64,000 bases of DNA from an uncultured Acidobacteriota bacterium (GTDB lineage Bacteria; Acidobacteriota; Vicinamibacteria; Vicinamibacterales; CAVVIG01): assembly GCA_963792785.1 (NCBI GenBank), contig CAWBXO010000002.1:256330-320329 (forward strand). Direction: 5' to 3'. Both the position numbers and the translations under genes were made by a program. Numbering within the stretch: position 1 is the stretch's first letter; every line of letters begins with the position of its first letter. Shown in pieces: positions 23,177 to 59,861 of the stretch. Under the pieces are notes generated by a model that saw only the letters and a list, made by a program, of their open reading frames with translations, ran no database searches and was not told the DNA's origin.

Positions 23177-23199
23177 TCGGCGGCTCGTACAATCACCGG

Positions 23200-24054: not shown

Positions 24055-25256
24055 CCGGCTTCGGGCTGGCCCGCCGAACCGTCGCATGCCATCGGGCACG
24101 CACGGCGCTGGCGATTGTCGGCGTCGCGGTGATCGGCGCGCTCAACTTCGACATGCTGCTGCTGTCGCGCGGGCTGGTGCTGTCGTTCGCGGACATGATC
24201 GGCAGCACCGGTTTCGACGTGCGCGTGGCCGCCGGAAGCGGCCTCGCCGCGCTCCGCCAGCCGATCGACGACGCCGCCCGCCTGGTGGCCGAGATTCGCC
24301 AGCTCCCCGAGGTCGCGGACGCCGCGATGGTGCAGAGCGACGAGGGCGCGGTCGTCGTGCCCGACCAGCGCAATCTGGGTGTCACGGTCGTGGGCGCCAG
24401 CCCCTCGTCGATCCCGCCCGGCTGGACGTTGACCGCCGGCCGGAACTTCACGGCCGCCGAGTCGGCTGCGACACCGCCGTTCATCGTCAGCCGGCAGCTC
24501 GCGTCGATGTTGCAGCTCGGGCCGGGCGCGGCCCTTCGGCTGCGGGTTGGAAGCCGGGCGGCCGGATCGGTCCTCCCGGCCGTCGCCGGGCGCGTGGTCG
24601 GCATCGCCGACTTCACCTTCGAGACCGCCGGTGAGCTGACGGTGGCGACCACGGTCGAGGGATTCCGGACCGTTCACGGCGGGCAGTCGGCCGACAGCGC
24701 GGACGTCGTACTGGTGGCGTCGCGAGCCACGGCGGGCACGGACGCCGCCGTGGCGGCGATCGCACGACTCCGGCCGGATCTTCGCGTGTACTCGAACGCC
24801 GATCTCGTCCGGGAGTTCAACGAGAACGGGTTCGCGTATTTTCGCCAGATCTCGATCCTGCTGTCCGTGACGACCGCGCTGTTCACGTTCCTGCTGGTGG
24901 CGGTGCTGCTGATCGTGTCGGCGAACCAGCGGCTGGGAGAAATCGCGGCGCTGCGGGCCATCGGCATCGCGCGGCGGCGCGTCGCGGCCATGCTGCTCTG
25001 GGAATCCGCGCTGCTCGTCGGCGCCGGAGGTGTCCTGGCGCTTCCCCTCGGGGGCGCGCTGGCGGTCGTGCTCGACCAGATCCTGCGCGGCATGCCGGGG
25101 CTGCCCGAGCGGCTGCACTTCTTCGTGTTCGAGCCGCGGGCCATCGTCCTGCAGGCCGTCCTGCTCGGCGCCACGGCGGTCGCTGCCGCCATCTATCCGG
25201 TACGTCTGGCCATGACGCTCCCCATCGCGCCGACGCTTCGGCGCGAAACGGTGTAA
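24051..25256 (+). CDS. FtsX/MacB-type ABC transporter permease, second subunit
   Basis: 'MTGFGLARRTVACHRARTALAIVGVAVIGAL' forms TM1, followed by a periplasmic domain. The FtsX region has 'NQRLGEIAALRAIGIARRRVAAMLLWESALLVGAGGVLALPLG'. ATGA overlap with the upstream gene. Confidence 0.75.
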   Translation: MTGFGLARRTVACHRARTALAIVGVAVIGALNFDMLLLSRGLVLSFADMIGSTGFDVRVAAGSGLAALRQPIDDAARLVAEIRQLPEVADAAMVQSDEGAVVVPDQRNLGVTVVGASPSSIPPGWTLTAGRNFTAAESAATPPFIVSRQLASMLQLGPGAALRLRVGSRAAGSVLPAVAGRVVGIADFTFETAGELTVATTVEGFRTVHGGQSADSADVVLVASRATAGTDAAVAAIARLRPDLRVYSNADLVREFNENGFAYFRQISILLSVTTALFTFLLVAVLLIVSANQRLGEIAALRAIGIARRRVAAMLLWESALLVGAGGVLALPLGGALAVVLDQILRGMPGLPERLHFFVFEPRAIVLQAVLLGATAVAAAIYPVRLAMTLPIAPTLRRETV

Positions 25257-25258
25257 CG

Positions 25259-25927
25259 ATGATCATCGACGCGCGTGGACTGCGCCGTGTCTTTCCGATG
25301 GCGGCGGGCGCCGTGGAAGCGGTGCGGGACGTCACGATCCGCGTGGCGGCGGGAGAGTACGTCGCGATCTCGGGGCCGTCGGGATGCGGCAAGTCCACGC
25401 TGCTCCAGTTGCTCGGATGCGTGGACGTCCCGACCTCCGGCTCCCTCTCCTTCGAGGGACGCGAGGTGGGAGGCCTCGGTGAAGACGAACGAAGCCGCCT
25501 TCGCCTCCGCCGTCTCGGCTTCGTGTTCCAGCGGTTCTTCCTGCTGCCGATGCTGACGGCCTGGGAGAACATCGAGCTGCCGCAGGCCGAGGCCGGGTCG
25601 CCGACGGCCGTCCGCCGTGGCCGGACGCGCGAGCTGCTGGAGTACGTGGGGCTTGCCGGCCGCGCGGATCACCTGCCGTCGCAGCTCTCAGGCGGCGAGA
25701 TGCAGCGCGTCGCGATCGCGCGGGCGCTCGCCAACCGGCCGGCGCTCCTGCTCGCGGACGAGCCGACCGGGGAGCTCGACGAACGCACCGGCCACCATGT
25801 CGCCGACCTCTTCGACCGCGTCAACGCCGACGGCACCGCCATCGTGCTCGTGACCCACAACGCCAGCCTGGCCGCGCGCGCCCGCGTGCGCCTCGCGATG
25901 CGCAACGGTGGGATCGAGGCCGCATGA
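25259..25927 (+). CDS. ABC transporter ATP-binding protein (MacB/LolD-like)
   Basis: Walker A 'GPSGCGKST', Q-loop, signature 'LSGGEMQRVAIARAL', Walker B 'LLLADEPTGELD', H-loop 'VLVTHN'. Confidence 0.9.
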   Translation: MIIDARGLRRVFPMAAGAVEAVRDVTIRVAAGEYVAISGPSGCGKSTLLQLLGCVDVPTSGSLSFEGREVGGLGEDERSRLRLRRLGFVFQRFFLLPMLTAWENIELPQAEAGSPTAVRRGRTRELLEYVGLAGRADHLPSQLSGGEMQRVAIARALANRPALLLADEPTGELDERTGHHVADLFDRVNADGTAIVLVTHNASLAARARVRLAMRNGGIEAA

Positions 25928-30948: not shown

Positions 30949-31155
30949 TCAGGCGAGTCTGACGTTCTCGCCGCGCGGACCCTTCGGACCCTGGCCCTTT
31001 TCGAAGGTCACGGCCTGACCCTCACGCAGATCGTCGAACGCGGTCTGCTCGCACGCCGAGTTGTGGAAGAAATACTCGTTCCCGTCGCCAGCCAGAATGA
31101 AGCCGAAGCCCTTGTCGCTGACGAGACGCTTGATCGTGCCGTTCATGGGTGCCAT
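30949..31155 (-). CDS. Cold-shock protein (CSD)
   Basis: 'GTIKRLVSDKGFGFILAGDGNEYFFHNSA' contains the RNP1 (KGFGFI) and RNP2-like (FFH) motifs. Confidence 0.9.
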   Translation of the reverse strand: MAPMNGTIKRLVSDKGFGFILAGDGNEYFFHNSACEQTAFDDLREGQAVTFEKGQGPKGPRGENVRLA

Positions 31156-31200
31156 GCAAAACTCCTTGAGATGTGAAATTTCCGACGGGGGTGAAAGTGC

Positions 31201-31530
31201 TTACTCGGGGATTAACGACCGCATCGTCCAGTCCGGATCGGCCAGGATGCCTTCATACATGGCCTCGGTCATCGACCGCTTCGCATAGTGACAGGCCATC
31301 ACGAACCGATCCTTGTCGTCGCGCCAGTCCAGCCGCTTGACGACGGCCCGGAAGGTGTACGCGCGCGTCGACAGCTCCAGATCGTCGCCCACCTTCGGCA
31401 GCGCCGGCAGCTCTATCACTTTCCAGAACCGCGACTCGCTGTTCGTGATGCGCCGGCCGTCGTCAGCAGGACTGCTCACGGTGATGCTGGGCAGACGAAG
31501 ATTCACTTCGAGCGTGATCATGGACTCCAT
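31201..31530 (-). CDS. Hypothetical protein
   Basis: 109-aa ORF with coding-like composition. No recognised family. Confidence 0.4.
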   Translation of the reverse strand: MESMITLEVNLRLPSITVSSPADDGRRITNSESRFWKVIELPALPKVGDDLELSTRAYTFRAVVKRLDWRDDKDRFVMACHYAKRSMTEAMYEGILADPDWTMRSLIPE

Positions 31531-31741
31531 AGCGCGCTCCGATCGTCGGCCGACTTGGGCCTAGTCGAGGCGCACCCGGCGGGTGCCGCTTGGACGCTGG
31601 CGGGCTCAGTGCGGTAGAACACTTCCACTCTACCCCATTTCCGGGTCCAGCACCCCTTTTTGGCCTGATCGAGGGGGTACACCCGCGGTATTGCCCAATC
31701 GACCCGAAAAACGGGGCCAGACCTGGACTGTGGCCGCGTGC

Positions 31742-32857
31742 TCAGGCGCCCAGCCTCACCGTCCGCCGCCCCAGCATATTCATCCGCGTCGTCCGGATCG
31801 TTGCGGCCTCGGCGACGCCGCCGTCGGCATAGCGGAACCGCAGCGCGTCCTGCGGGCACTGCACGATGCAGGCACCGCACGTGATGCACTGATCGGGCCG
31901 CCGGATCTCGACCTTTCTGAGGCCGCCGTTCATCTGGAGCACGTCGCGCGGGCACACCTGCACGCACTCGGCGGCGCCCGTGCACCGCGACGCCACGAGC
32001 TCGATCCGCACGGGATTCTGATAGGCGTTGATGTAGCTGCTGTACCAGGGCGTGGTGCCCGCGAGATCGACCGACACGATCGCCATCGTGCCGGCCGCGA
32101 CGGCGCCGACCAGCGCCAGATGGCTCGCCGAGGCGGTCGCCAGGATCCGGAGGAACCCGGCGCCGAGGGCAAACCCAAGAGCGGCACAGGCCGCAAACGT
32201 GAGCCACCGGGCCCCGCCGCGCACGTTGAGCCACGGCAGCAGGCCGAACAACCCGAACACGATCGCCGCGACGAGCACGACCGACGCCGCCATCACGCGT
32301 GCGCCGCCGAGCCACCAGACAACCGGCGCGACAAGAGCCATCGTCGGGAGCGCCCACACGAGCGCCATCTCGAAGCGCTCCCACAGCGGGAAGCGCATGA
32401 ACCGGTCCCGCCGGTACACGCGGCGGCCGCGATCGAGAAATTCCGGAAGATCCTCCAGCCGCGCGGGGCCCCAGCGCGTGGCCCAGCCCGTCGCCTCGGT
32501 CACCTTGCGGCGCTCGACGCCGGTGGCCGAGAGCTGCGGCAGGACGATCTCGCGGTGATCGACGAGGCCGTCGATGCCCGACACGCGAATGGCGGCGATC
32601 ACGTCATGATGCGTCAGGTGCCCGCCGCCGGCGGCGCACCAGACGTTGATCCCCTTGCTGTCGGCGCAGAGCAGCCAGGCGCTTCGTCCCGCAAGGACAT
32701 CGCGAAGCCGCCGCACGGTGAGGGTGAAGTTCCCGGTGAGGAGCACCGGTGCGTCGCGGCCGGGACGGCCGATGCGCACCAGCCCGGGCGGCGCCCGATG
32801 CGGAATCATGCGGAACGCGGTGTCGCGGACGTACGCCGGAACGTCCCGCAGCCTCAC
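31742..32857 (-). CDS. HgcAB-like fusion protein: HgcA-type corrinoid-binding domain + about 5 TM helices + HgcB-like 2x[4Fe-4S] ferredoxin domain
   Basis: 'PGLVRIGRPGRDAPVLLTGNFTLTVRRLRDVLAGRSAWLLCADSKGINVWCAAGGGHLT' parallels the HgcA cap-helix region N(V/I)WCA(A/G)GK. A hydrophobic block follows. The C-terminus has 'CTGAAECVQVCP' and 'CITCGACIVQCP'. I chose the GTG start at 32857, which overlaps the upstream stop as GTGA. Alternative ATG at 32809. Confidence 0.75.
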   Translation of the reverse strand: MRLRDVPAYVRDTAFRMIPHRAPPGLVRIGRPGRDAPVLLTGNFTLTVRRLRDVLAGRSAWLLCADSKGINVWCAAGGGHLTHHDVIAAIRVSGIDGLVDHREIVLPQLSATGVERRKVTEATGWATRWGPARLEDLPEFLDRGRRVYRRDRFMRFPLWERFEMALVWALPTMALVAPVVWWLGGARVMAASVVLVAAIVFGLFGLLPWLNVRGGARWLTFAACAALGFALGAGFLRILATASASHLALVGAVAAGTMAIVSVDLAGTTPWYSSYINAYQNPVRIELVASRCTGAAECVQVCPRDVLQMNGGLRKVEIRRPDQCITCGACIVQCPQDALRFRYADGGVAEAATIRTTRMNMLGRRTVRLGA

Positions 32858-33522
32858 GCCGGGCCTTCCTGGCGCGCCGCGTACAGGATCATGAAGGATC
32901 CCGACCAGAGCCGCGTCTCTTCGACGTTGACGAAACCCGCGGCGCGAACGCGCGCGGCCAGGCCATCCACCGGCCGCGTCGTCGTCTGCGTCAGCAGGTA
33001 GGTGAGAGACACGAGCGGCAGGCGCAGGAGCCGGCGCCACGCGCGGCGAAGGGCACCGCCGGCGGCGATCTCGTCCGCGATCACGATCGCACCGTCGGGT
33101 TTGAGGCGCGAGAAGGCCGCGCGCAGCGCGTAGGCCTGCGCCTCGGGCGACAACTCACTGAACACGAGACACGAGACCACCGCGTCCAGACTCGCGGCCG
33201 GCACGCGGTCCTCGACCTCGGCGGCATCGAGCTGCAGCCACTCGATCCGGCCCCCGCCAGGCGGGACGGGTTTGTGCCGTGCGACTTCGAGCATCTCGGC
33301 ATTGCTGTCGATAGCGACGACGTCCGCGCCGCGCGCGGCGCAGGCCAGGCTGACGCCGCCCGTCCCGCACCCGATGTCGAGCACGCGCCGGCGAGGCCCG
33401 GCGACACGCGCCGCGATTCGATCGTACACCTCGTCGATCCGGCCGCGCGAGAGCAGCCGGATCCCGCGGTCGTAGCGTTCTGGCGTCGATTCCAGCACCT
33501 TCATCCACACGAAGCTGCTCAC
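32854..33522 (-). CDS. SAM-dependent methyltransferase associated with corrinoid protein (CpaM-like)
   Basis: 'VLDIGCGTGGVSLACAARGADVVAIDSNAEMLEVAR', 'LDAVVSCLVFSEL', 'LKPDGAIVIADE'. The GTG at 33522 is preceded by GGAGGA at 6-nt spacing. Alternative ATG at 33504. The CpaM name is recalled from NCBIfam and is not verified. Confidence 0.7.
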   Translation of the reverse strand: MSSFVWMKVLESTPERYDRGIRLLSRGRIDEVYDRIAARVAGPRRRVLDIGCGTGGVSLACAARGADVVAIDSNAEMLEVARHKPVPPGGGRIEWLQLDAAEVEDRVPAASLDAVVSCLVFSELSPEAQAYALRAAFSRLKPDGAIVIADEIAAGGALRRAWRRLLRLPLVSLTYLLTQTTTRPVDGLAARVRAAGFVNVEETRLWSGSFMILYAARQEGPA

Positions 33523-33601
33523 GGTCGATCCTCCGTGCGCGACGTGGTCGCGGTTCCGCCCACGATAGATCGAAAACCCGGGCCGAGGTACACTGGCCGC
33601 G

Positions 33602-34579
33602 TTGGCTGGTCGACTTGAACGGCCCGGACGCGTGTGGACTGTGGCCGCGCCGGAAGCCGGCCTCACCCTCGACAAATTTCTCGCCGCCGCCGACCGCCTG
33701 GTGTCGCGCTCGAAGGCCGCCGCCGCGCGCGGGCGGGGCAAGGTCTTCGTCAACGACCACGAAGCCGGGCGCGCCGAGGCCGGGCTTCGCCTGAAGCGCG
33801 GCGATGTCGTCCGCGTCTGGGACGACCGGCCCGGCAGCGCGACGCGGCGGCCGTTTCCCTTCAAGGCCGGCGATCTCGACATCCTCTACGAAGACGCGGC
33901 GCTCGTCCTGCTCAACAAGCCGGCCGGCCTGCTCGCGGTGCCGCTCGAACGGCGCGAAGAGGAAGTCTCGATCTTCGACCAGCTCGAACAGCACCTGCGG
34001 TCGCACGGCAAGCTCAAGCCGCTCGTCGTCCATCGCATCGACCGCGACACCTCAGGCGTCGTGCTCTTCGCCAAGGACGGCCGCACGCAGGCGGCGTTGA
34101 AGCAGCAGTTCCGGGAGCGCACGCCCGAGCGCGTGTACCTCGCCGTCGTCTACGGCCGGCCGAGCCCGCCGGCGGGCGTCTGGCGGGATCACCTCGTCTG
34201 GGACACGAAGGCGCTGATTCAGAAGGAAACGGATCCGAAGGATCCCAAGGGTGTCGAGGCGATCTGCCGCTACCGCGTCGTCGAGGCCTTCGAGTCGACG
34301 AGCCTGATCGAAGTGACGCTGCAGACCGGGAAGCGGAACCAGATCCGGATTCAGGCGCGGTTGCGCGGGCACACGCTCGTCGGCGAGCGCCGGTACACCT
34401 TCGGTCCCGACACGCTGCGGCCGATTCCCTTCAAGCGTCAGGCGCTGCACGCGTGGCGCCTGGCGTTCCGGCATCCCGCGGACAATCGCGCGATGTCGCT
34501 CGAGGCGCCCGTGCCCCCCGACATGAAGAAGCTGGTGTCACGCCTCAGGCACGAGGCGAAGATGCCCAAGCGGGCGTGA
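33602..34579 (+). CDS. RluA-family 23S rRNA pseudouridine synthase (S4 domain + catalytic domain, RluD-like)
   Basis: 'LDKFLA...SRSKAAAARGRGKVFVN' (S4-like), and the catalytic 'LVVHRIDRDTSGVVLFAK' and 'GRPSPPAGVW...GKRNQIRIQA'. Confidence 0.85.
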   Translation: MAGRLERPGRVWTVAAPEAGLTLDKFLAAADRLVSRSKAAAARGRGKVFVNDHEAGRAEAGLRLKRGDVVRVWDDRPGSATRRPFPFKAGDLDILYEDAALVLLNKPAGLLAVPLERREEEVSIFDQLEQHLRSHGKLKPLVVHRIDRDTSGVVLFAKDGRTQAALKQQFRERTPERVYLAVVYGRPSPPAGVWRDHLVWDTKALIQKETDPKDPKGVEAICRYRVVEAFESTSLIEVTLQTGKRNQIRIQARLRGHTLVGERRYTFGPDTLRPIPFKRQALHAWRLAFRHPADNRAMSLEAPVPPDMKKLVSRLRHEAKMPKRA

Positions 34580-34595
34580 TCCCGATTTCGGACGC

Positions 34596-36269
34596 TCACC
34601 GCGCGTAGCGATCGTGCCGAATCGAGCTCGCCAGCGCCAGGATGGTCTCCGCCGGCACACCGAGGCGTCCGAGCGCCTGGCGTGTCATCTCGATCGCCGC
34701 CTCGAATTCCGGGGAGGTCACTTCGTCGACGCCGAGCGCGTACAACGCCCGAACAGCCTCGGGACCGTCGGCCCTCGCGCCGATCGGCAGGCCGGTGCGA
34801 AGGCGGGAAGCGGACGAGACGATCGCGCGGACGTCGGGCAACGCCGGTACCGTCACCAGCAGCAGTTTCGCGCGGGGCAGGCCCGCCGCCTCCAGCACCA
34901 CCGCGTGGCTCGCGTCGCCGTAGACCACCGGCAGCCCGAGGGCCTTCGCCTGCTGAACGCGCCGGTCGTCGATCTCCACCAGCACGAACGGGAGCGACAG
35001 ACGCGCGAGTCCCTCGGCGACCGTTCGCCCGACGCGTCCGGCCCCCGCCACGACGACATGATCGGCAAGGCCGCCCGAGGGAAGATTGGCGCGCTCGAGC
35101 GGCTCCCGCGGCGCGCGCGCCAGGAGGCGCCGGCCGATCCACGGCGTCGCGCTGGAGACGATGGGCGTCAGCGCCATCGTCACGACCGCGGTGTTCAGGA
35201 CGAGCGTGTAGAGGTCGGCGCTGATCGCCCCGTCCGCGCGGCCGACCGTGGCGAGCACGAAGGTGAACTCGCCGACCTGGAACAGGGTCAGCGCGGCGGC
35301 GAGCGGCACGATGCGCCGGTAGCCGAACAGGCGCACGACACCGGCCAGGATGGCCCCTTTCCCGACGACGACCGCCGCGACCACGATCGCCAGCGTGCCC
35401 AGTTGCCGCCAGACCAGCGCAGGATCCAGCAGCATGCCCACCGACACGAAGAACAGCATGCCGAACAGATCGCGGAGCGGCGCCACATCGCTCAGCGCCT
35501 GGTGGGCGTAGTCGGATTCACTGATGACGAGGCCCGCGATGAACGCCCCGAGCGCCACGGACAGGCCCAGGCTCCAGGCGGCGTAGCCCACGCCGAGCGC
35601 CACGGCGATCGTCATGAGCAGGAACAGCTCGCGCGAGTTCCACCGGGCGACCGTGGCCATGAGCCGCGGGATCGCGCGCGTCGCCACCAGCACGATGAGG
35701 CCGAGCAACAGGAAGGCCCGGGCGGTCGCCGCCGCGATCCGCCAGACCTGTCCGCCCGGCTGCCCAAGCTCCGGCAGCACGATCATCAGCGGCACCACGG
35801 CCAGGTCCTGCACGACGAGCATGCCGAGCATGACGCGGCTCGACAGTGTGCCGAGCCGTCCCTGCGCCTGCAGTGTCTTGAGCGCCACCATGGTGCTGGA
35901 CAGCGCGATCAGGGCGCCGAACCAGAGCGCCGGCGTCCAGCTCCACCCAAGCGCGGTGGCCAGGCCCATGCCCAGGGCGATCGTGAGCACGATCTGCAGC
36001 GCCCCGCCGCCAATCGCGACGGCGCGCACCGGCGCGAGCGAGCGGAACGAGACTTCGAGGCCGAGGGAAAACAGCAGGAGCGCGACCCCCAGCTCAGCCA
36101 GCTGCTCGATGCCCTGGACCGACGCCACCGTGAACCCGCCCGTGAACGGGCCGACGGCGACGCCCGCCAGGATGTAGCCGACGATCAGCGGCTGCCCCAG
36201 CCGACGCGCGAGGAATCCGCCGGCAAGGGCGGCGACCAGGACGAGCGTGAGATCGGCCAGCAGCTCCAT
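34596..36269 (-). CDS. CPA2-family cation:proton antiporter with C-terminal TrkA-N (KTN) domain (KefB/YbaL-like)
   Basis: 'MELLADLTLVLVAALAGGFLARRLGQPLIVGYILAGVAVGP', 12-13 TM segments, then the Rossmann motif 'HVVVAGAGRVGRTVAEGL'. Confidence 0.85.
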   Translation of the reverse strand: MELLADLTLVLVAALAGGFLARRLGQPLIVGYILAGVAVGPFTGGFTVASVQGIEQLAELGVALLLFSLGLEVSFRSLAPVRAVAIGGGALQIVLTIALGMGLATALGWSWTPALWFGALIALSSTMVALKTLQAQGRLGTLSSRVMLGMLVVQDLAVVPLMIVLPELGQPGGQVWRIAAATARAFLLLGLIVLVATRAIPRLMATVARWNSRELFLLMTIAVALGVGYAAWSLGLSVALGAFIAGLVISESDYAHQALSDVAPLRDLFGMLFFVSVGMLLDPALVWRQLGTLAIVVAAVVVGKGAILAGVVRLFGYRRIVPLAAALTLFQVGEFTFVLATVGRADGAISADLYTLVLNTAVVTMALTPIVSSATPWIGRRLLARAPREPLERANLPSGGLADHVVVAGAGRVGRTVAEGLARLSLPFVLVEIDDRRVQQAKALGLPVVYGDASHAVVLEAAGLPRAKLLLVTVPALPDVRAIVSSASRLRTGLPIGARADGPEAVRALYALGVDEVTSPEFEAAIEMTRQALGRLGVPAETILALASSIRHDRYAR

Positions 36270-36342
36270 CGAGGGACCGAGCGTACACGCCGGTGGAGGG
36301 TGAGTAAACTGGGCCAGACTGGCGCGCCGCTCGTGGGATACC

Positions 36343-36810
36343 ATGACCGGCATGCGGCGCCGGCTTCTCGGCTGTCTGACCCTCTCGGCAGCGCTCCTTG
36401 CCCCCGCGTACTCCGCCGCGCAGACGACCCGCGTCCGCTCCGATCAGGAGGCGCTGACCGAGCTGGAGCACCAGTGGAACGACGCGGTGTACCGGCAGGA
36501 CGCCGATTTCGTCGCCTCGGTCCTCGCCGACGAGTTCGTGGCCACGTACGAGGACGGCAGCCGCGGCGACAAGGCCAGCGAGCTCGAGCTGGTCCGCACC
36601 TTCAATCAGTACGTGGAGTCCGCGATCCAGGACGACTTCACGATCCGCGTCTACGGCGACACGGCGATCGTCTGGTTCACGCTGCACCTGACCGGCGTCC
36701 GCCAGGGCCAGCACGCCGAGGTCACGCTCCGCTTCACCGACGTCTTCGTGTTTCGCGACACCCGCTGGCAATGCGTGTCGAGCCAGAGCACGAAGGTCAC
36801 GCCGGCGTAG
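36343..36810 (+). CDS. Secreted SnoaL-like/DUF4440 (NTF2-fold) protein
   Basis: Signal peptide 'RRRLLGCLTLSAALLAPAYSAAQ'. 'ALTELEHQWNDAVYRQDADFVASVLADEFVATY' and 'TDVFVFRDTRWQCVSSQ' are typical of DUF4440. Confidence 0.6.
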   Translation: MTGMRRRLLGCLTLSAALLAPAYSAAQTTRVRSDQEALTELEHQWNDAVYRQDADFVASVLADEFVATYEDGSRGDKASELELVRTFNQYVESAIQDDFTIRVYGDTAIVWFTLHLTGVRQGQHAEVTLRFTDVFVFRDTRWQCVSSQSTKVTPA

Positions 36811-36849: not shown

Positions 36850-36945
36850 TGGCGGAGAAGGGAGGGAGTCGAACCCTCCGGGGATCGTGTCGATCCCCAG
36901 ACTGGTTTTGAAGACCAGCGGCGCCACCGGGCACCTTCCTTCTCC
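36850..36945 (-). tRNA. selC: tRNA-Sec (anticodon UCA), CCA encoded
   Basis: The reverse complement reads GGAGAAGG-AA-GGTGCC-CGGT-GGCGCC-G-CTGGT-CTTCAAA-ACCAG-(long variable arm GGGGATCG-ACA-CGATCCCC)-GAGGG-TTCGACT-CCCTC-CCTTCTCC-G-CCA. This gives an 8-bp acceptor stem, a 6-bp D stem with a 4-nt loop, the UCA anticodon and a long extra arm, matching the bacterial tRNA-Sec architecture. Confidence 0.9.
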
Positions 36946-37043: not shown

Positions 37044-39515
37044 GTGACGATCGGCCGTGTGCTGGACGATACGAGCCGCGACGTTCGCGATGGCGTGCGG
37101 TCGCTTCTGCGCCGCCCGGGGTTCACCGCCGTGGCCATCCTGTCGCTGGCGCTCGGCATCGGCGCGAACACGGCCATCTTCACCCTCGTCAACGCCATCA
37201 TCCTCCGCCCCACCCCGATCGATCGCCCTGACCAGATCGTCAACATCTACCTCAATCAACCCTCCGCCTCCTACAGCACGCTGTCGTACCCGGAGTTCAG
37301 GGACATTCGCGACGCCACCGCAGGCGTGTTCAGCGGGCTCGGCGCCACGCAACTCGTGCCGGCGCAGGTCGATGGCGCCGACGGGATCGGCATCGAGTTC
37401 GCCGAGGCCGTGACGGGCACCTATTTCCCGATGCTCGGCATTCACGCGGTGATCGGCCGCACGCTGCTGCCCGACGACGACGTCGGCCGGGGAGGCCACG
37501 CGGTCGTCATGCTCGACTACGGCTACTGGCAGGCGGCGTTCGGTGCCGATCCGGCGGTCGTCGGCCGTGAGCTCCGAATCAGCGGCCGAGCCTACACCGT
37601 GATCGGCGTCGGACCGCCGGACTTCCTGGGCAGCATCACGGGGCTCCGGCCCGCGTTCTACGCGCCGTACGCGATGGTCGAGGAGCTCGTCGGCGACACG
37701 ATGTTCGACAACCGGGGCAACCACTCGCTGTTCGTCAAGGCCCGCCGGCGCGACGGCGTCACGCTTCCCCAGGTCCAGGCCGCCGTCACCTCGGTCGCCA
37801 CCCGCCTCACCGAAAGCCGCATTCAGGGTTGGGATCCGGCCAGCGCGTTCCTCACGGTCCCGACGACCGACGTCCTCCTCTACCCGCCGCTGGATCAGTA
37901 CATCCGCGGAAGCGCGTGGCTGCTCATGGTGGTGGTCGCCCTCGTGCTGCTGCTGGCCTGCACGAACCTGGCGAGCTTTCTCCTCGCCCGCGCGGTCGAT
38001 CGGCGCAAGGACATCGCGGTGCGGCTCGCATTGGGCGCATCGCGGTGGTCGCTCGTGCGGCGCCTGCTCACCGAGAGCACGCTGCTGAGCCTGCTGGCGG
38101 GCGGGGTCGGGGTCGGCCTGGCCGTCGCGCTGCTGCATCTGCTGGTCCGCGTCGATCTTCCCGTGCCGCTGCCGATCAATCTCGATCTCGGCCTGGACTG
38201 GACGGTGCTGCTCTTCACGCTCGGCGTGTCGGTCGTCGCCGGCGCGCTGCTCGGTCTCGTCCCGGCGCTCCAAAGCACGCGCCCGGATCTGGTGGCCGTC
38301 ATCAAGACCGAGAGCGCGGGCGGCGGGCAGCCCACCCACCGGCGGTGGCGAAACGCCCTGGTCGTCACCCAACTCACGATTTCTCTCGTCCTCCTGGTGG
38401 GCGCCGGCCTGTTCCTTCGCAGCTTCCAAAAGGTGCTGGCGGTGGATCCCGGCTTCGGACGGGATCCGGCGGCCATCCTGACCTTCATGACGCCGGCGAC
38501 GCGATTCACCGACGACGAGGGGCGCGTCTACGCGAAGCGGCTGCTCGAGCGGTTTCGGGCCGTTCCGGGAGTGACCGCCCTCGGGGTCATCAGCAACCTC
38601 CCGCTCAACCCGCTCAGCACCTCCTCCATGCCGTTCAACGTGGACGGACACGAGCCGCCGGTCGACCAGCGCGCCTTCATCGCCGACCGCGCCGAGGTCG
38701 ATGCCGGGTTCTTTGACGCCGTCGGGATCAGGATCCTGCGCGGCCGGAACTTCACCGACGCCGATCGGCACGGCAGCCAGGCGGTGGCGATCGTCAGCGA
38801 AGCCATGGCGCAGCGCTTCTGGCCGGGCGGCGACGCCATCGGCCGCCTGATCCGGACGGTCGACGACGACGACCAGGACCTGGTCGTCGTCGGAGTGGCC
38901 AGCGACGCCAAGGTGCGGACGCTCAGCGAAGCCCCGCGGAACATGATCTATCGCTCGTACGAACAGTTCTTCCCGCGCTCGCTGACCGTCGTCGCCAGGA
39001 CCTCGGCCGATCCAGATCGGACGGCGCTCGCACTGCTGGCTGCGGGACGCGAGGTGGATCCGAACTTGTGGGTCTGGGAAATGAAGACGATGGAGCGGCA
39101 CCTGGCCACGATGCGGCTGCCGGCGCAGCTGTCGGCCTTCGTGCTCGCGGTCTTCGCCGTTCTGTCTCTCGCGCTGGCGGCGATTGGGCTGTACGGCGTG
39201 GTCAGCTACGCCGTGTCCGAGCGCACGCGTGAGGTCGGGATCCGGATGGCGCTCGGCGCCGATCCAGGCTCCGTCGTCAGGCTGCTCGCCTTGAGCGGCC
39301 TTCGACTGGTGCTGATCGGGACGGGGATCGGCCTGGCCGGCGCGCTGGTGGTGACGCGGCTGTTGAGCAGCCTGCTGTTCGGCGTGGAGACGTTCGATCC
39401 CGTCACCTTCGCGGTGGTGCCCCTCGTGCTCGGGGCAACCGCCGGCCTCGCCGCGTACCTTCCGGCCCGCCGCGCCAGCCGGATCGATCCCGTGACGGCC
39501 CTCCGGGCGGACTAG
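37044..39515 (+). CDS. ADOP-family duplicated MacB/FtsX-type ABC permease
   Basis: 823 aa. 'DVRDGVRSLLRRPGFTAVAILSLALGIGANTAIFTLVNAIILRP' is the typical ADOP N-terminus. It has two FtsX modules, each preceded by a large periplasmic domain. No adjacent ATPase gene. Confidence 0.85.
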   Translation: MTIGRVLDDTSRDVRDGVRSLLRRPGFTAVAILSLALGIGANTAIFTLVNAIILRPTPIDRPDQIVNIYLNQPSASYSTLSYPEFRDIRDATAGVFSGLGATQLVPAQVDGADGIGIEFAEAVTGTYFPMLGIHAVIGRTLLPDDDVGRGGHAVVMLDYGYWQAAFGADPAVVGRELRISGRAYTVIGVGPPDFLGSITGLRPAFYAPYAMVEELVGDTMFDNRGNHSLFVKARRRDGVTLPQVQAAVTSVATRLTESRIQGWDPASAFLTVPTTDVLLYPPLDQYIRGSAWLLMVVVALVLLLACTNLASFLLARAVDRRKDIAVRLALGASRWSLVRRLLTESTLLSLLAGGVGVGLAVALLHLLVRVDLPVPLPINLDLGLDWTVLLFTLGVSVVAGALLGLVPALQSTRPDLVAVIKTESAGGGQPTHRRWRNALVVTQLTISLVLLVGAGLFLRSFQKVLAVDPGFGRDPAAILTFMTPATRFTDDEGRVYAKRLLERFRAVPGVTALGVISNLPLNPLSTSSMPFNVDGHEPPVDQRAFIADRAEVDAGFFDAVGIRILRGRNFTDADRHGSQAVAIVSEAMAQRFWPGGDAIGRLIRTVDDDDQDLVVVGVASDAKVRTLSEAPRNMIYRSYEQFFPRSLTVVARTSADPDRTALALLAAGREVDPNLWVWEMKTMERHLATMRLPAQLSAFVLAVFAVLSLALAAIGLYGVVSYAVSERTREVGIRMALGADPGSVVRLLALSGLRLVLIGTGIGLAGALVVTRLLSSLLFGVETFDPVTFAVVPLVLGATAGLAAYLPARRASRIDPVTALRAD

Positions 39516-39566
39516 ACGGCTTGGCCTTCGTTGAAACGGGACGGCATTTGTGCGAGCCTCATCGGG

Positions 39567-40955
39567 ATGGCACACAGCGGCGGGCGGCTTCGGGACCTGC
39601 CCTCGATCGACCGCCTCCTGGTTCTCGCCGCTGAGGAGCCTCGTCTGGCCCGGTTCGCCCGCGAGAGCATCGCGCGCGCCTGCCGGGAGATCGTGGGCGA
39701 GTTGCGGCGCGCCCTCGAACTCGGCGAGCCGTCCGATTCACGATCGCTCGCCGAGGCGTCGGTGCTCGAGCGGGTCCGCGAGCGGCTCACGACGATGGCC
39801 GACGGCGGCCTCACGCGCGTGGTCAACGCCACCGGCACGATCCTGCACACGAACCTCGGGCGCGCGCCGCTCGCGGCGCCGGCCGTCGAGGCCGTCCGTC
39901 TGGCGGCCGCCCATCCCGTGACGCTCGAGTACGACCTGGAGCGCGGCGAGCGCGGGCGGCGTGAGGCCCAGTTGGAACGGCTGCTCGTCGAACTCACCGG
40001 CGCCGAGGCCGCGACAGTCGTCAACAACAACGCCGCCGCGACGCTGCTGGCGCTGAACACCCTCGCCGACGGCAAAGACGTGGTGGTGTCGCGCGGCGAG
40101 CTCATCGAGATCGGCGGCGCGTTCCGGATCCCCGAGATCATGGCGAAGAGCGGGGCCGTGCTGCGGGAGGTCGGCACCACCAACCGCACCCACGCCGCCG
40201 ACTACGAGCGCGCGATCGGCGAGCGGACGGGCCTGCTGCTGAAGGTCCACACGAGCAATTACAAGGTCGTCGGCTTCGTGGCGGACGTGCCCCTGCCGGA
40301 CCTGGTCGCCATCGGCCGGCGGCACGGCGTGCCCGTCATGGAGGATCTGGGGAGCGGGGCGCTGGTCGATCTCGGCCGGTACGGCCTGCCCGCGGAACCC
40401 GTGGTGCGCGACCGCGTCGGGATGGGCGCCGACGTGGTGACCTTCAGCGGCGACAAGGTGCTCGGCGGCCCGCAGGCAGGCCTGATCGTCGGATCGCATC
40501 GCTGGGTGGGCGAGATCTCGCGGAACCCGCTGCACCGCGCCGTACGGTGCGGCAAGCTCACGATCGCGGCCCTCGAGGCCACGCTGAAGCTCTACGCGGG
40601 GGCCGGCGACCCGGCCGTGGACGTGCCGACGCTGGTGATGCTGACGCGGCCGATCGAGCACCTCGAGGACGTCGGAGCGCGGGCCCTGCCCCTGCTCGCG
40701 GCGGCGCTGGGCCCGGAGTTCCGGCTGTCGCTGCGGCCATCGACCTGCCAGATCGGCAGCGGCGCCCTTCCGACCGAAGAGATCCCGTCGAGGGCGATCG
40801 TCGTCGAGCACGATCGCCTGCCCGCCCACCGGATCGCCGAGCGCTTCCGGCGCGCGCGCCCGCCCGTCGTCGGGCGCGTCGTCGCCGATCGCTTTCTCCT
40901 CGACCTGCGGACGATCTTCGATCCGGCCGAGCTGGCGCCGGGCCAGCCGGATTGA
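39567..40955 (+). CDS. selA: L-seryl-tRNA(Sec) selenium transferase
   Basis: '[11 protein letters not shown]', '[18 protein letters not shown]', '[20 protein letters not shown]' and '[17 protein letters not shown]' (PLP lysine). The longest ORF starts at TTG 39531. Confidence 0.9.
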
Positions 40956-52079: not shown

Positions 52080-55271
<3,192 letters not shown>

Positions 55272-55275
<4 letters not shown>

Positions 55276-59638: not shown

Positions 59639-59660
59639 GAAGTCTTTTGGTCCGGCTAGT

Positions 59661-59861
59661 CTAGTCCGGCAAGGCGGCTGCCGTCGGGTCATCCACCACA
59701 AGGCGGACGACCCTGAACTGCGCCACTTCGGTCTGGGCGGTGACCGCGATCTTGTCGGAGGCCGGCACGCGCGGCACGCAGCCGCGCGAAAGCTGGCCGG
59801 CCCGGAGGCCAGCCAGCACGGCAAATTCGAACGCCCCGATGGAGAGGGGACGTCTGATCAT
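59661..59861 (-). CDS. Possible RNA polymerase omega subunit-like small protein
   Basis: 66 aa. 'GAFEFAVLAGLRAGQLSRG' weakly resembles the RpoZ 'NRFELVLLAAKRARQL' helix. It starts 3 nt after the RRM gene's stop. Low certainty. Confidence 0.3.
   Translation of the reverse strand: MIRRPLSIGAFEFAVLAGLRAGQLSRGCVPRVPASDKIAVTAQTEVAQFRVVRLVVDDPTAAALPD

What the first reader, a model, noticed from the sequence alone, without database searches (positions are those of the whole stretch)
31742..33522. HgcAB-like fused corrinoid/ferredoxin membrane protein coupled to a SAM methyltransferase: a candidate uncharacterised methyl-transfer module
Seen in sequence:
- The N-terminal 140 aa align by eye with the HgcA corrinoid domain: PGL..G.....PVL.T.N..LT...LR..L.......L..D.KGINVWCAAG.
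- The cap-helix Cys that ligates cobalt in HgcA is kept (codon 32636-32638). The following Lys of the N(V/I)WCA(A/G)GK signature is Gly (NVWCAAGGG).
- A block of about 5 TM helices follows, then an HgcB-like ferredoxin domain fused in the same polypeptide.
- The first cluster motif is degenerate (CTGAAECVQVCP, 3 Cys) and the second is canonical (CITCGACIVQCP). The C-terminal Cys-Cys tail of HgcB is absent.
- The upstream class I SAM methyltransferase overlaps it by GTGA, and its GTG start has a strong GGAGGA Shine-Dalgarno sequence.

Established knowledge: HgcA/HgcB perform corrinoid-dependent Hg methylation. Fused HgcAB-type homologs that were tested (as I recall, e.g. Pyrococcus furiosus) did not methylate Hg, and their function is unknown.

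Inference: this pair could be a self-contained SAM -> Co(I)-corrinoid -> unknown acceptor methylation system at the membrane. The acceptor could be a metal(loid) or a small molecule. The window also carries Se-utilisation genes and a B12-radical SAM enzyme.
Basis: partly seen in the sequence, partly recalled or inferred. Interest (0 to 1): 0.8.

Follow-up and report, generated by a model that had tools for sequence, protein, structure and literature searches.

The report
SAM methyltransferase plus HgcAB-like corrinoid protein
Two overlapping genes encode a SAM-dependent methyltransferase (CpaM) and a membrane-anchored vitamin-B12/iron-sulfur protein related to the mercury-methylating enzyme HgcAB; the pair belongs to an already named but functionally untested family that is almost certainly a self-contained methyl-transfer machine with an unknown target.

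Summary
On the minus strand, a 222-aa class I SAM methyltransferase (33522-32854) overlaps by GTGA a 371-aa protein (32857-31742) made of a CFeSP/HgcA-type corrinoid domain, a membrane domain and a ferredoxin domain.

Both genes pass curated NCBIfam cut-offs: "HgcAB-like fusion protein" (396 bits, cut-off 285) and "corrinoid protein-associated methyltransferase CpaM" (275 bits, cut-off 180). The larger protein fails the bona fide HgcA model (164 bits, cut-off 275). It is therefore a new member of a named, uncharacterised pair, not a new kind.

- The membrane domain has 4 helices, not 5.
- The 3-Cys first Fe-S motif is invariant in 120/120 close relatives, so it is a conserved [3Fe-4S]-type signature rather than decay.
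- The selenium genes and the radical SAM gene are real but unlinked.

The coupling is very strong:
- CpaM sits directly upstream in 77 of 78 informative genomes across about 10 phyla.
- The two genes overlap by 4 nt in 61 of 76 pairs.
- Their divergence is correlated (r = 0.77).
- More than 100 natural CpaM-HgcAB-like single-chain fusions exist.
- A TetR regulator leads the operon in about one third of loci.

Most likely mechanism (inferred): CpaM loads methyl from SAM onto Cys-ligated Co(I); the ferredoxin domain re-reduces cobalt; methyl then goes to an unknown acceptor at the membrane. Mercury methylation is unlikely.

The parts
32854..33522 (-). cpaM: class I SAM-dependent methyltransferase, 222 aa, GTG start
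   Evidence: NCBIfam NF043040 CpaM 274.8 bits against cut-off 180, aligned 3-216 of the protein to 1-215 of the profile. Pfam Methyltransf_25/11/23. Invariant SAM motif LDxGCGTGG plus D72 and E102 in 19 orthologues.
33529..33534 (-). Shine-Dalgarno GGAGGA, 6 nt upstream of the cpaM GTG
   Evidence: Read directly from the sequence.
32854..32857 (-). GTGA stop/start overlap (translational coupling of cpaM and the HgcAB-like gene)
   Evidence: The same 4-nt overlap occurs in 61 of 76 orthologous pairs: ATGA 37, GTGA 23, TTGA 1.
31742..32857 (-). HgcAB-like fusion protein, 371 aa
   Evidence: NCBIfam NF043039 396.1 bits against cut-off 285. AlphaFold pLDDT 89.3, pTM 0.83. Best Foldseek match is the HgcAB integrative model 9a0b_A, E 1e-11 over 292 columns.
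32429..32803 (-). Corrinoid-binding domain (residues about 19-143), CFeSP/HgcA type
   Evidence: PF03599 CdhD residues 19-138. CFeSP 2h9a/2ycl/4c1n/4djd at rmsd 1.8-2.5 A over about 128 residues.
32636..32638 (-). Cys74 codon (TGC): cap-helix Cys, the predicted lower axial thiolate ligand of cobalt
   Evidence: Invariant in 120 close relatives and in a 35-sequence divergent set. Aligns with the Cys of NVWCAAGKGT in true HgcA and with the cap-helix Thr position of CFeSP.
32066..32386 (-). Membrane domain: four TM helices (residues 158-184, 186-205, 216-238, 244-264)
   Evidence: Kyte-Doolittle peaks and DSSP on the AlphaFold model. The Arg-rich segment before TM1 and the even helix number place both soluble domains in the cytoplasm (inference, positive-inside rule).
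32015..32068 (-). Conserved juxtamembrane linker D264-LAGTTPWYSSYINAYQ-N281
   Evidence: D264, G267, T269 and P270 are invariant; T268, W271, Y272, S274, I276, N277 and N281 are at least 90% conserved in 120 sequences. DLxGxTP is kept in the divergent set. Its role (active-site lid or substrate site) is an inference.
31829..32011 (-). Ferredoxin domain (residues about 283-343)
   Evidence: Pfam Fer4_7/Fer4_10/Fer4. NCBIfam HgcB model 54 bits, below its cut-off of 99.
31949..31984 (-). First Fe-S motif C292-x2-A295-x2-C298-x3-C302-P (three Cys; [3Fe-4S]-type signature)
   Evidence: Sequence. The second Cys is absent in 120/120 close relatives: A 98, S 13, T 4, K 2, V 2, R 1. It is present as Cys in the single-chain CpaM fusions of anaerobes.
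31853..31888 (-). Second Fe-S motif C324-x2-C327-x2-C330-x3-C334-P (canonical [4Fe-4S])
   Evidence: Sequence. Invariant.
31745..31828 (-). C-terminal tail (residues 344-371), clade-specific, no Cys
   Evidence: Median 36 residues after motif 2 in the close clade against 7 in the triple fusions; no C-terminal Cys-Cys in any of them. R355, G363 and R365 are invariant.

Best explanation
cpaM and the HgcAB-like gene form a translationally coupled, self-contained two-protein methyl-transfer module at the cytoplasmic face of the membrane.

SHOWN (by sequence, profile and fold evidence):
- The two gene products are a class I SAM-binding methyltransferase and a single polypeptide that carries a CFeSP/HgcA-type corrinoid domain with the HgcA cap-helix Cys, four TM helices and a two-cluster ferredoxin domain.
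- The two genes are inherited, and in many organisms fused, as one unit.

INFERRED mechanism:
(1) The ferredoxin domain takes electrons from a cellular donor and reduces the bound corrinoid to Co(I). Its clusters are probably [3Fe-4S] plus [4Fe-4S] in this clade, a form expected to tolerate oxygen better.
(2) CpaM binds SAM and transfers its methyl to Co(I), giving methyl-Co(III) stabilised by the Cys74 thiolate, and releases SAH. CpaM thus plays the 'MT1' role that MeTr plays for CFeSP. Chemically this resembles the SAM-plus-flavodoxin reductive methylation of methionine synthase.
(3) The Cys-ligated methyl-cobalt passes the methyl, as a carbanion or radical equivalent, to an unknown acceptor. 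The acceptor would be bound near the conserved juxtamembrane linker and TM domain. Cobalt is left oxidised, so the ferredoxin domain is needed in every cycle.

The acceptor is not identified. A lipophilic or membrane-partitioning small electrophile is mildly favoured over a free metal cation, because the only recurrent extra gene is a TetR-type, small-molecule-sensing regulator. The patchy, cross-phylum and cross-domain distribution fits an accessory (detoxification or modification) function rather than core metabolism. It is not a bona fide mercury methylase.
For: Family identity: (NF043039 396 bits against 285; NF043040 275 against 180).

Fold: (pLDDT 89; HgcAB model 9a0b_A and CFeSP are the top matches).

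Cys alignment and invariance.

Intact SAM-binding motifs in CpaM, invariant in 19 orthologues.

Coupling of the two genes:
- CpaM is directly upstream on the same strand in 77 of 80 loci. Two of the other three are cut by contig ends.
- Starting from CpaM instead, 4 of 4 places have the HgcAB-like gene next door.
- A 4-nt stop/start overlap occurs in 61 of 76 pairs, and pairwise identities of the two proteins correlate at r = 0.77 over 2850 pairs.
- Six tested long proteins pass both NCBIfam cut-offs in one chain, and at least 118 clusters of about 590-aa single-chain CpaM-corrinoid-TM-ferredoxin proteins exist. These stand alone in their neighbourhoods.

No other conserved partner except a TetR regulator in 26 loci.

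Four TM helices put both soluble domains on one side of the membrane.

Precedent: purified HgcAB uses SAM, not methyl-THF, to form methyl-Cob(III) with Cys thiolate ligation, and its ferredoxin is proposed to supply two electrons per cycle (PMC11588087).
Against: No biochemical datum exists for any member of this family. No paper in the library mentions CpaM.

HgcAB itself accepts SAM without any CpaM-like partner (PMC11588087), so the corrinoid protein might not need CpaM to be loaded.

The CpaM fold is that of ordinary small-molecule methyltransferases: AtmM/RebM, and Coq5 at TM 0.71. None of these is known to methylate a protein-bound corrinoid.

I could not inspect the coordinates of the models, so there is no geometric evidence that the SAM pocket faces the corrinoid.

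The cluster type ([3Fe-4S]) is inferred from the motif alone.

The acceptor is unknown, and the argument for an organic acceptor rests only on the TetR association, which is seen in about a third of loci and not in this window.
Confidence: 0.55

Rival explanations
1. The corrinoid domain is methylated by SAM directly, as reported for HgcAB. CpaM is a second, conventional methyltransferase that modifies the same substrate or the product at another atom. The pair would then be a two-step methylation pathway rather than a loader plus carrier.
For: HgcAB needs no separate methyltransferase to use SAM (PMC11588087). By fold and profile CpaM resembles small-molecule methyltransferases of the UbiE/Coq5, ArsM and RebM types.
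Against: The obligate pairing in 77/78 informative loci, the translational coupling and the covalent fusion in more than 100 protein clusters are typical of subunits of one enzyme rather than successive pathway steps. In the fusions CpaM is joined directly to the corrinoid domain N-terminus. True HgcA, which lacks CpaM, forms a separate clade, so its SAM handling need not apply here.
Confidence: 0.15
2. The physiological chemistry is Co(I)-dependent reduction, for example dehalogenation of halomethanes or other organohalides, rather than methyl transfer to an acceptor. CpaM plus the ferredoxin domain would serve only to park or reactivate the cofactor by reductive methylation, as the SAM domain does in methionine synthase.
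For: A 2026 preprint reports CCl4 dechlorination by heterologously expressed HgcAB (10.64898/2026.04.26.720869). A TetR-regulated, horizontally spread membrane module fits xenobiotic detoxification. Corrinoid plus two Fe-S clusters is also the cofactor set of reductive dehalogenases (established knowledge).
Against: The preprint concerns true HgcAB in anaerobes and is not peer reviewed. A stoichiometric, always-fused SAM methyltransferase is a costly solution for occasional repair. There is no homology to reductive dehalogenases in Pfam or NCBIfam.
Confidence: 0.12
3. It is a functional mercury methylase: an HgcAB variant that works in oxygen-exposed soil bacteria.
For: The cap-helix NVWC motif with the essential Cys is kept, and the overall architecture matches HgcA plus HgcB. 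Podar et al. note that a negative whole-cell assay does not prove that the fused enzyme cannot methylate Hg (PMC4646819).
Against: - It scores 164 bits against the HgcA model, whose cut-off is 275.
- The Lys of the N(V/I)WCA(A/G)GK signature is Gly.
- The HgcB Cys73 and C-terminal Cys-Cys, reported as crucial for Hg methylation (PMC11588087), are absent in all 120 close relatives.
- Every cultured organism with a fused HgcAB that has been tested made no methylmercury (PMC10087281, PMC4646819).
- It branches apart from true HgcA.
Confidence: 0.04
4. The pair is a decaying or non-functional relic of hgcAB.
For: One Fe-S motif lacks a Cys and the HgcB tail is missing.
Against: Both reading frames are intact, with coding-type GC3 of 0.82-0.85. 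About 60 positions are invariant across 120 relatives, including all 7 cluster Cys and Cys74. The 'missing' Cys is missing in every member. Synteny and overlap are conserved across phyla.
Confidence: 0.01

Closest known systems
HgcA/HgcB mercury methylation system (e.g. Pseudodesulfovibrio mercurii ND132)
   Same: It shares a CFeSP-type corrinoid domain with the cap-helix N(V/I)WC motif and the Cys that ligates cobalt, a C-terminal membrane domain, and a partner 2-cluster ferredoxin. SAM is now shown to be the methyl source for HgcAB (PMC11588087). The best structural match of the window model is the HgcAB model 9a0b_A.
   Different: - The ferredoxin is fused to the corrinoid protein.
- There are 4 TM helices, not 5.
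- The signature reads GGG instead of GKG after the Cys.
- The first Fe-S motif has 3 Cys.
- HgcB Cys73 and the C-terminal Cys-Cys are absent.
- A dedicated SAM methyltransferase (CpaM) is obligately associated.
- It falls below the HgcA and HgcB NCBIfam cut-offs (164 against 275; 54 against 99).
- It forms a separate clade.
Fused HgcAB of Pyrococcus furiosus, Methanococcoides methylutens, Kosmotoga pacifica, Atribacteria (Podar 2015; Gilmour 2018)
   Same: Same NCBIfam family (HgcAB-like fusion protein) and same domain order. Function is unknown, and tested carriers produce no methylmercury.
   Different: The window protein belongs to a subclade that is distinct from the more distant short-tailed fused proteins in the representative set. 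The subclade has a 3-Cys first Fe-S motif and a tail of about 36 residues. It is found mostly in Myxococcota, Gemmatimonadota, Alphaproteobacteria, Actinomycetota and Acidobacteriota. I did not have the P. furiosus sequence itself to compare. The literature had noted a single aerobic carrier, Breoghania sp. L-A4.
Corrinoid iron-sulfur protein CFeSP (AcsC/AcsD) with MeTr and the reductive activator RACo, Wood-Ljungdahl pathway
   Same: The corrinoid-binding fold is homologous (rmsd about 2 A). The logic is the same: a methyltransferase loads Co(I), an Fe-S centre keeps cobalt reduced, and methyl is handed to a metal or electrophilic acceptor.
   Different: CFeSP is soluble and heterodimeric, has one N-terminal [4Fe-4S] cluster, has no protein ligand to cobalt (Thr where Cys74 lies) and takes methyl from methyl-tetrahydrofolate through a TIM-barrel MeTr. 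Here the presumed loader is a Rossmann-fold SAM enzyme and the carrier is membrane-anchored.
Reactivation module of cobalamin-dependent methionine synthase MetH (SAM plus flavodoxin reductive methylation)
   Same: SAM is used to methylate cob(I)/(II)alamin, coupled to a modest-potential electron donor. This is the chemistry proposed for CpaM plus the ferredoxin domain, and it works in aerobes.
   Different: The folds of both the SAM-binding and the B12-binding parts are unrelated. In MetH this is an occasional repair; here it would be the main loading step.
Class B (cobalamin-dependent) radical SAM methylases and TsrM
   Same: They use SAM plus cobalamin plus Fe-S for methylation of difficult acceptors. 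TsrM works without a 5'-deoxyadenosyl radical.
   Different: There is no radical SAM domain or CxxxCxxC motif and no Rossmann-type B12-binding domain. The ferredoxin-type clusters are in a separate domain.

Membership tests
HgcAB-like fusion protein (NCBIfam NF043039) | Whole-protein score at or above the curated cut-off (285 bits) | tested here: met
   396.1 bits, E 1.9e-118, residues 9-340 on profile positions 3-350 of 350.
HgcAB-like fusion protein (NCBIfam NF043039) | Corrinoid domain, transmembrane domain and ferredoxin domain in one polypeptide | tested here: met
   PF03599 over residues 19-138 and Fer4 families over 285-342. Four TM helices over residues 158-264.
HgcAB-like fusion protein (NCBIfam NF043039) | Cap-helix Cys in an N(V/I)WC context | tested here: met
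   The Cys74 codon is at 32636-32638. N71, W73 and C74 are invariant in the divergent 35-sequence alignment.
CpaM, corrinoid protein-associated methyltransferase (NCBIfam NF043040) | Whole-protein score at or above the curated cut-off (180 bits) | tested here: met
   274.8 bits, E 4e-82, full-length alignment.
CpaM, corrinoid protein-associated methyltransferase (NCBIfam NF043040) | Genomic association with an HgcAB-like corrinoid protein | tested here: met
   GTGA overlap in the window. 77/80 loci have the same arrangement. 4/4 reciprocal look-ups agree. Natural fusions exist.
CpaM, corrinoid protein-associated methyltransferase (NCBIfam NF043040) | Class I SAM-binding motifs intact | tested here: met
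   VLDIGCGTGG (motif I), acidic D72 and E102 are invariant in 19 orthologues. Actual SAM binding is not testable here.
Bona fide HgcA (NCBIfam NF040863; Hg-MATE high-stringency criteria) | Score at or above the curated cut-off (275 bits) | tested here: not met
   164 bits. Control proteins P0246, P0256 and P0258 score 333-373 bits.
Bona fide HgcA (NCBIfam NF040863; Hg-MATE high-stringency criteria) | Cap-helix signature N(V/I)WC(A/S)(A/G)GK (PMC10087281) | tested here: not met
   The window has NVWCAAGG: the Lys is Gly. True HgcA representatives have NVWCAAGKGT.
Bona fide HgcA (NCBIfam NF040863; Hg-MATE high-stringency criteria) | Five transmembrane helices (PMC11588087 introduction) | tested here: not met
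   Four helices by hydropathy and in the AlphaFold model.
Bona fide HgcB (NCBIfam NF040864) | Score at or above the cut-off (99 bits) and two CxxCxxCxxxCP motifs | tested here: not met
   54 bits. The first motif is CxxAxxCxxxCP.
Bona fide HgcB (NCBIfam NF040864) | Cys73 and the C-terminal Cys-Cys needed for Hg methylation (PMC11588087) | tested here: not met
   No Cys after residue 334. None of the 120 close relatives has a C-terminal Cys-Cys.
Bona fide HgcAB | Methylmercury production | not testable with these tools
   Only the literature is available: tested carriers of fused HgcAB were negative.
CFeSP large subunit / CdhE (NCBIfam NF003195, Pfam PF03599) | Full-length match including the N-terminal [4Fe-4S] and TIM-barrel parts | tested here: not met
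   Only the last 125 positions of the profile match: 64.8 bits against a cut-off of 306. Pfam CdhD profile positions 265-384 of 387. This is domain-level homology only.
7Fe ([3Fe-4S][4Fe-4S]) ferredoxin-type domain | First motif lacks the second Cys (CxxXxxCxxxCP) while the second motif is complete | tested here: met
   C292/A295/C298/C302 and C324/C327/C330/C334. The same holds in 120/120 relatives. That this pattern gives a 3Fe cluster is established knowledge (for example E. coli FrdB V207C, D. gigas ferredoxin II), recalled and not tested.
7Fe ([3Fe-4S][4Fe-4S]) ferredoxin-type domain | Actual presence of a [3Fe-4S] cluster | not testable with these tools
   Needs EPR or Mossbauer spectroscopy on purified protein.
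Class B radical SAM methylase | Radical SAM core with CxxxCxxC and an N-terminal B12-binding Rossmann domain | tested here: not met
   No Radical_SAM or B12-binding Pfam hit. Cys spacing is 292/298/302.

The most novel reading that the evidence does not exclude
This clade may be an oxygen-tolerant offshoot of the HgcAB enzyme family. It has a 3-Cys ferredoxin motif, an obligate CpaM partner, and is often TetR-controlled. It has spread by horizontal transfer through mostly aerobic soil and marine bacteria and into Thermoplasmata archaea. Under this reading it uses SAM-derived, Cys-ligated methyl-cobalt to methylate an environmental electrophile: a metal(loid), an organohalide-derived species or a quinone-like compound. 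That would give the first physiological function for the HgcA superfamily outside mercury and would reveal an unrecognised aerobic route to methylated metal(loid)s or xenobiotics.
Probability: 0.2. Interest if true: 0.8.

Novelty: new member of a known kind. Interest (0 to 1): 0.5.

Why it matters
Why microbes carry HgcAB-type enzymes is a long-standing puzzle. Mercury methylation gives no known benefit, and the native role of the family is unknown.

The fused paralogues are the nearest relatives, and their function is a blank. This analysis shows that they come with a dedicated SAM methyltransferase as an inseparable, often covalently fused partner. [quoted passage not shown]

It also shows that one subclade, with a conserved three-Cys cluster site, is widespread in lineages usually regarded as aerobic. 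The mercury literature knew of one such carrier. This matters for metagenomic surveys that must separate true methylators from look-alikes. For this window itself, the result is an ordinary, already nameable annotation.

Tried and rejected
(1) Scanning genome contigs with the divergent alignment A2 failed because no stretch was conserved enough. The close-clade alignment A1 was used instead. The 80 loci therefore sample only the window's subclade, and the 77/78 figure applies to that subclade.

(2) The reciprocal scan of metagenome contigs with the CpaM alignment was uninformative. The patterns, such as [VI]LD[IVM]GCGTG, are generic class I motifs, and only 2-4 of 80 loci were real CpaM, on contigs too short to judge. 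It was replaced by exact look-ups of three CpaM homologues.

(3) Clustering of all ORFs within 8 kb in 81 loci found no conserved transporter, B12 gene, sel gene or metal-resistance gene. It found only TetR, in 26 loci. P-type ATPases appear in 9 loci at scattered positions and are of different subtypes, so they were judged coincidental.

(4) The idea that the Se genes or the radical SAM gene of the window are functionally linked was rejected. They are real but lie 3-26 kb away, are separated by unrelated genes and are not syntenic elsewhere.

(5) A plasmid search by tblastn found nothing.

(6) The promoter and terminator scan of 31100-33900 gave nothing above shuffled expectation.

(7) Model coordinates are not exposed to the scripting tool. 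Distances between the CpaM SAM pocket, Cys74 and the clusters could not be measured.

(8) The exact window protein is not on record in the contig index, so the sample of origin was not identified.

(9) N-terminal extensions of 140-190 aa in another subgroup (P0183, P0187, P0199, P0209) have no Pfam or NCBIfam match. This was not pursued.

(10) The 'degenerate motif' and 'relic' readings were rejected on conservation.


Full report
WHAT IS THERE.

On the minus strand two genes overlap by GTGA. The first runs from GTG 33522 to TGA 32854 (222 aa) and has GGAGGA 6 nt upstream of its start. The second runs from GTG 32857 to TGA 31742 (371 aa). Both have the codon-position GC pattern of real genes in this 65-73% G+C window. 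Conservation of the N-terminus MSSFVWMKVLES in orthologues confirms the upstream GTG start.

IDENTITY.

- Against NCBIfam, the 371-aa protein scores 396 bits on NF043039 'HgcAB-like fusion protein' (cut-off 285).
- It scores only 164 bits on NF040863 'mercury methylation corrinoid protein HgcA' (cut-off 275) and 54 bits on the HgcB model (cut-off 99).
- The 222-aa protein scores 275 bits on NF043040 'corrinoid protein-associated methyltransferase CpaM' (cut-off 180).
- Pfam sees the C-terminal corrinoid part of PF03599 (CdhD) at residues 19-138, 4Fe-4S families at 285-342, and generic class I methyltransferase families in the other protein.
- The nearest solved sequences are CFeSP large subunits. 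No experimental HgcA structure turned up by sequence.
- An AlphaFold model built on 120 homologues is confident (pLDDT 89.3, pTM 0.83).
- Its best Foldseek match is the deposited integrative model of HgcAB (9a0b_A, E 1e-11, 292 columns). CFeSP follows at about 2 A rmsd over 128 residues.

The two models it proposed to test are exactly the ones that fit. The pair is already a named pair in NCBI's annotation system, and database copies carry those names.

CHECKING THE DETAILS.

- Cys74 (codon 32636-32638) is the Cys of NVWCAAGGGH.
- It aligns with the Cys of NVWCAAGKGT in proteins that pass the true HgcA model. It also aligns with the cap-helix Thr position in CFeSP.
- The Lys-to-Gly difference is real.
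- The membrane domain has four helices, not five. Hydropathy gives four peaks, and the model has helices 158-184, 186-205, 216-238 and 244-264. A natural three-domain fusion also models with four.
- An even number is what a fusion needs if the corrinoid and ferredoxin domains are to sit on the same (cytoplasmic) side. The Arg-rich stretch before TM1 agrees with that. This topology is an inference.
- The first Fe-S motif is C292-x2-A-x2-C298-x3-C302-P and the second is a full CxxCxxCxxxCP. There is no Cys after residue 334.
- The missing second Cys is not decay. It is missing in 120 of 120 close relatives (Ala 98, Ser 13, Thr 4, others 5), while all seven remaining Cys are invariant.
- From established knowledge of ferredoxin-type sites (E. 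coli FrdB V207C, D. gigas ferredoxin II), this pattern is the signature of a [3Fe-4S] cluster. That is a recalled precedent, not a test.
- The single-chain CpaM fusions found in Desulfobacterales, Calditrichota and Ignavibacteria-type bins keep four Cys.
- The three-Cys state therefore looks derived in the window's clade.

HOW TIGHT IS THE COUPLING?

A scan of one genome per species (GTDB r232), using two peptide patterns from the close clade, found 93 relatives. Eighty loci were fetched.
- A CpaM homologue lies immediately upstream on the same strand in 77 of them.
- Two of the other three are cut by the contig end. One (L031) has repeats in place of CpaM.
- In 61 of 76 pairs the stop and start overlap by four bases, as in the window.
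- Pairwise identities of the two proteins correlate at r = 0.77 over 2850 locus pairs.
- Starting from CpaM instead, three homologues looked up on long contigs all have the HgcAB-like gene next door, 4 of 4 places.

The search of 1.84 billion cluster representatives turned up proteins of 580-640 aa. Six of these were tested, and all pass both NCBIfam cut-offs in one chain, with CpaM at the N-terminus. A follow-up search found at least 118 clusters of such about 590-aa proteins. In the two lineages looked up they stand alone, with unrelated neighbours. This is Rosetta-stone evidence that the two window proteins work as one enzyme and need no further dedicated partner.

Clustering of all ORFs within 8 kb found one other recurrent gene. 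It is a TetR-family regulator of about 205 aa (PF00440 plus TetR_C_24). It lies directly upstream of CpaM with overlapping stop/start in 26 loci, and it is absent from the window.

DISTRIBUTION.

The carriers are labelled Myxococcota, Gemmatimonadota, Alphaproteobacteria, Actinomycetota, Acidobacteriota, Planctomycetota, Steroidobacteraceae, Deinococcales, Spirochaetaceae and two Thermoplasmata archaea. The Alphaproteobacteria include the isolate Allgaiera indica DSM 24802. Identities to the window protein are 50-69% throughout, which implies horizontal spread. By general knowledge these lineages are mostly aerobic or facultative.

The Hg literature treats fused HgcAB as rare and names one aerobic carrier. 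No plasmid copy was found. On a neighbour-joining tree of the corrinoid domain, the window protein nests inside the fused family and true HgcA forms its own clade.

MECHANISM.

What is shown is the parts list and the obligate association. What follows is inference.

Purified HgcAB forms methyl-Cob(III) with Cys-thiolate ligation from SAM, not from methyl-tetrahydrofolate. Its ferredoxin is proposed to deliver two electrons per cycle, because the methyl leaves as a carbanion or radical (PMC11588087).

The simplest reading of the window pair has three steps:
- CpaM, whose SAM motifs are intact and invariant, is the loader that moves the SAM methyl to Co(I) on the corrinoid domain.
- The fused ferredoxin domain re-reduces cobalt.
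- The Cys74-ligated methyl-cobalt then methylates an acceptor bound at the membrane interface. The stretch D264-N281 between TM4 and the ferredoxin domain is as conserved there as the cofactor sites.

A [3Fe-4S]/[4Fe-4S] pair, together with SAM-driven pulling of an uphill reduction, would resemble how methionine synthase is reactivated in aerobes. I put 0.55 on this scheme.

The acceptor is unknown. The TetR link, the membrane anchoring and the patchy distribution lean towards an accessory function on a small, probably lipophilic electrophile. This lean is weak.

RIVALS.

(a) The corrinoid domain takes SAM directly, as HgcAB does, and CpaM methylates the substrate or product elsewhere (0.15). 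The covalent fusions argue against this.

(b) Co(I) reductive chemistry such as halomethane dehalogenation, as a 2026 preprint reports for HgcAB, with CpaM serving for cofactor parking (0.12).

(c) True mercury methylation (0.04). Against it:
- the failed HgcA and HgcB cut-offs;
- the GKG-to-GGG change;
- the missing HgcB Cys73 and Cys-Cys tail;
- the negative culture tests of fused carriers.

(d) A relic (0.01), refuted by conservation.

SURROUNDINGS.

The pair is a two-gene operon here. It is flanked by a divergent RluA-type pseudouridine synthase (33602-34579, +), a Kef-type antiporter (34596-36353, -), an unannotated 109-aa ORF, a probable cold-shock protein (identified by eye only) and an NHL-repeat protein.

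- tRNA-Sec at 36850-36945;
- selA at 39531-40955 and selB at 40966-42903;
- selD ending at 43961, with an in-frame TGA at 42960-42962 at the active-site position.

They are the selenocysteine-decoding machinery. An ADOP permease and other genes separate them from the pair, and they are not syntenic with the pair elsewhere.

The radical SAM gene at 58112-59824 gives only sub-threshold hits to many B12-binding radical SAM families. It lies 25 kb away.

VERDICT.

This is a new member of a known, named, but biochemically untested family. It is not a new kind of system.

Beyond the label, this analysis adds:
- the four-helix topology;
- the invariant three-Cys cluster site of the clade;
- the near-absolute synteny, overlap and co-divergence with CpaM;
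- the abundance of single-chain fusions;
- the TetR association;
- the breadth of carriers.

Interest is moderate (0.5). The presence of the pair will not surprise a specialist who uses NCBI annotation. However, the function of the HgcA family is an open question, and this two-gene unit makes it directly testable.

Noticed in passing
window 36850-36945 (-), 39531-40955 (+), 40966-42903 (+), about 42906-43961 (+): A complete selenocysteine-decoding set: tRNA-Sec, selA, selB and selD. selD carries an in-frame TGA at 42960-42962, in the context AAAG*AAKLGP, at the position of the active-site Cys/Sec. SelD is therefore itself probably a selenoprotein and would be mis-called as a truncated ORF.
   Followed up: partly
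window 52174-56456 (+): An AcrB/CusA-type RND transporter appears in at least three separate ORFs. They match Pfam ACR_tran positions 32-218, 310-418 and 806-1020. The last piece is joined to an HlyD-type membrane-fusion domain. This could be frameshifts, a pseudogene or assembly errors.
   Followed up: no
window 58112-59824 (-): A 570-aa radical SAM protein has weak, sub-threshold similarity to many cobalamin-binding (class B) radical SAM families. The best hit is 75 bits against a cut-off of 360. It belongs to no curated family.
   Followed up: partly
L006:6695-7315, L051:6743-7354, L162:4390-5004 and 23 further loci: A TetR-family regulator (about 205 aa, TetR_N plus TetR_C_24) directly precedes cpaM with overlapping stop/start in 26 of 80 loci from several phyla. 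It is absent from the window. Its ligand could point to the substrate.
   Followed up: partly
proteins P0183, P0187, P0199, P0209 (468-539 aa): A subgroup of HgcAB-like fusion proteins carries an extra N-terminal region of 140-190 residues. The region has no Pfam or NCBIfam match.
   Followed up: partly
L041 and L059 (Thermoplasmata archaeon MAGs): Archaeal bins carry cpaM plus the HgcAB-like gene, with the HgcAB-like protein 53-60% identical to the bacterial window copy. This suggests inter-domain transfer or mis-binning.
   Followed up: no
L031:1-928: This is the only informative locus without cpaM. The space upstream of the HgcAB-like gene is filled with short repeated units (recurring peptide-like frames such as LDYARDERW and TLGMSGG) up to the contig end.
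   Followed up: partly
L161:5683-6776: In one long-read contig the HgcAB-like gene downstream of cpaM is called only as a 218-aa ferredoxin-containing fragment. This is probably a frameshift in the assembly.
   Followed up: no
L166-L168:8191-9939: In one lineage the single-chain CpaM-HgcAB-like gene is followed by Fe/Mn superoxide dismutase and a fused MsrA/MsrB methionine sulfoxide reductase, an oxidative-stress context. It was seen in a single gene neighbourhood, on three contigs that carry the identical protein.
   Followed up: no
window 37044-39515 (+) and 22720-25927 (+): An ADOP-family duplicated permease (839 bits) lies between tRNA-Sec and selA. Further FtsX-type permease genes with an ABC ATPase lie upstream. 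By general knowledge ADOP proteins are typical of Acidobacteriota, which hints at the source organism.
   Followed up: no
window 31201-31530 (-): A 109-aa ORF with coding-like GC3 (0.84) lies just downstream of the HgcAB-like gene. It has no Pfam match, and no counterpart was noticed in the 80 related loci.
   Followed up: partly
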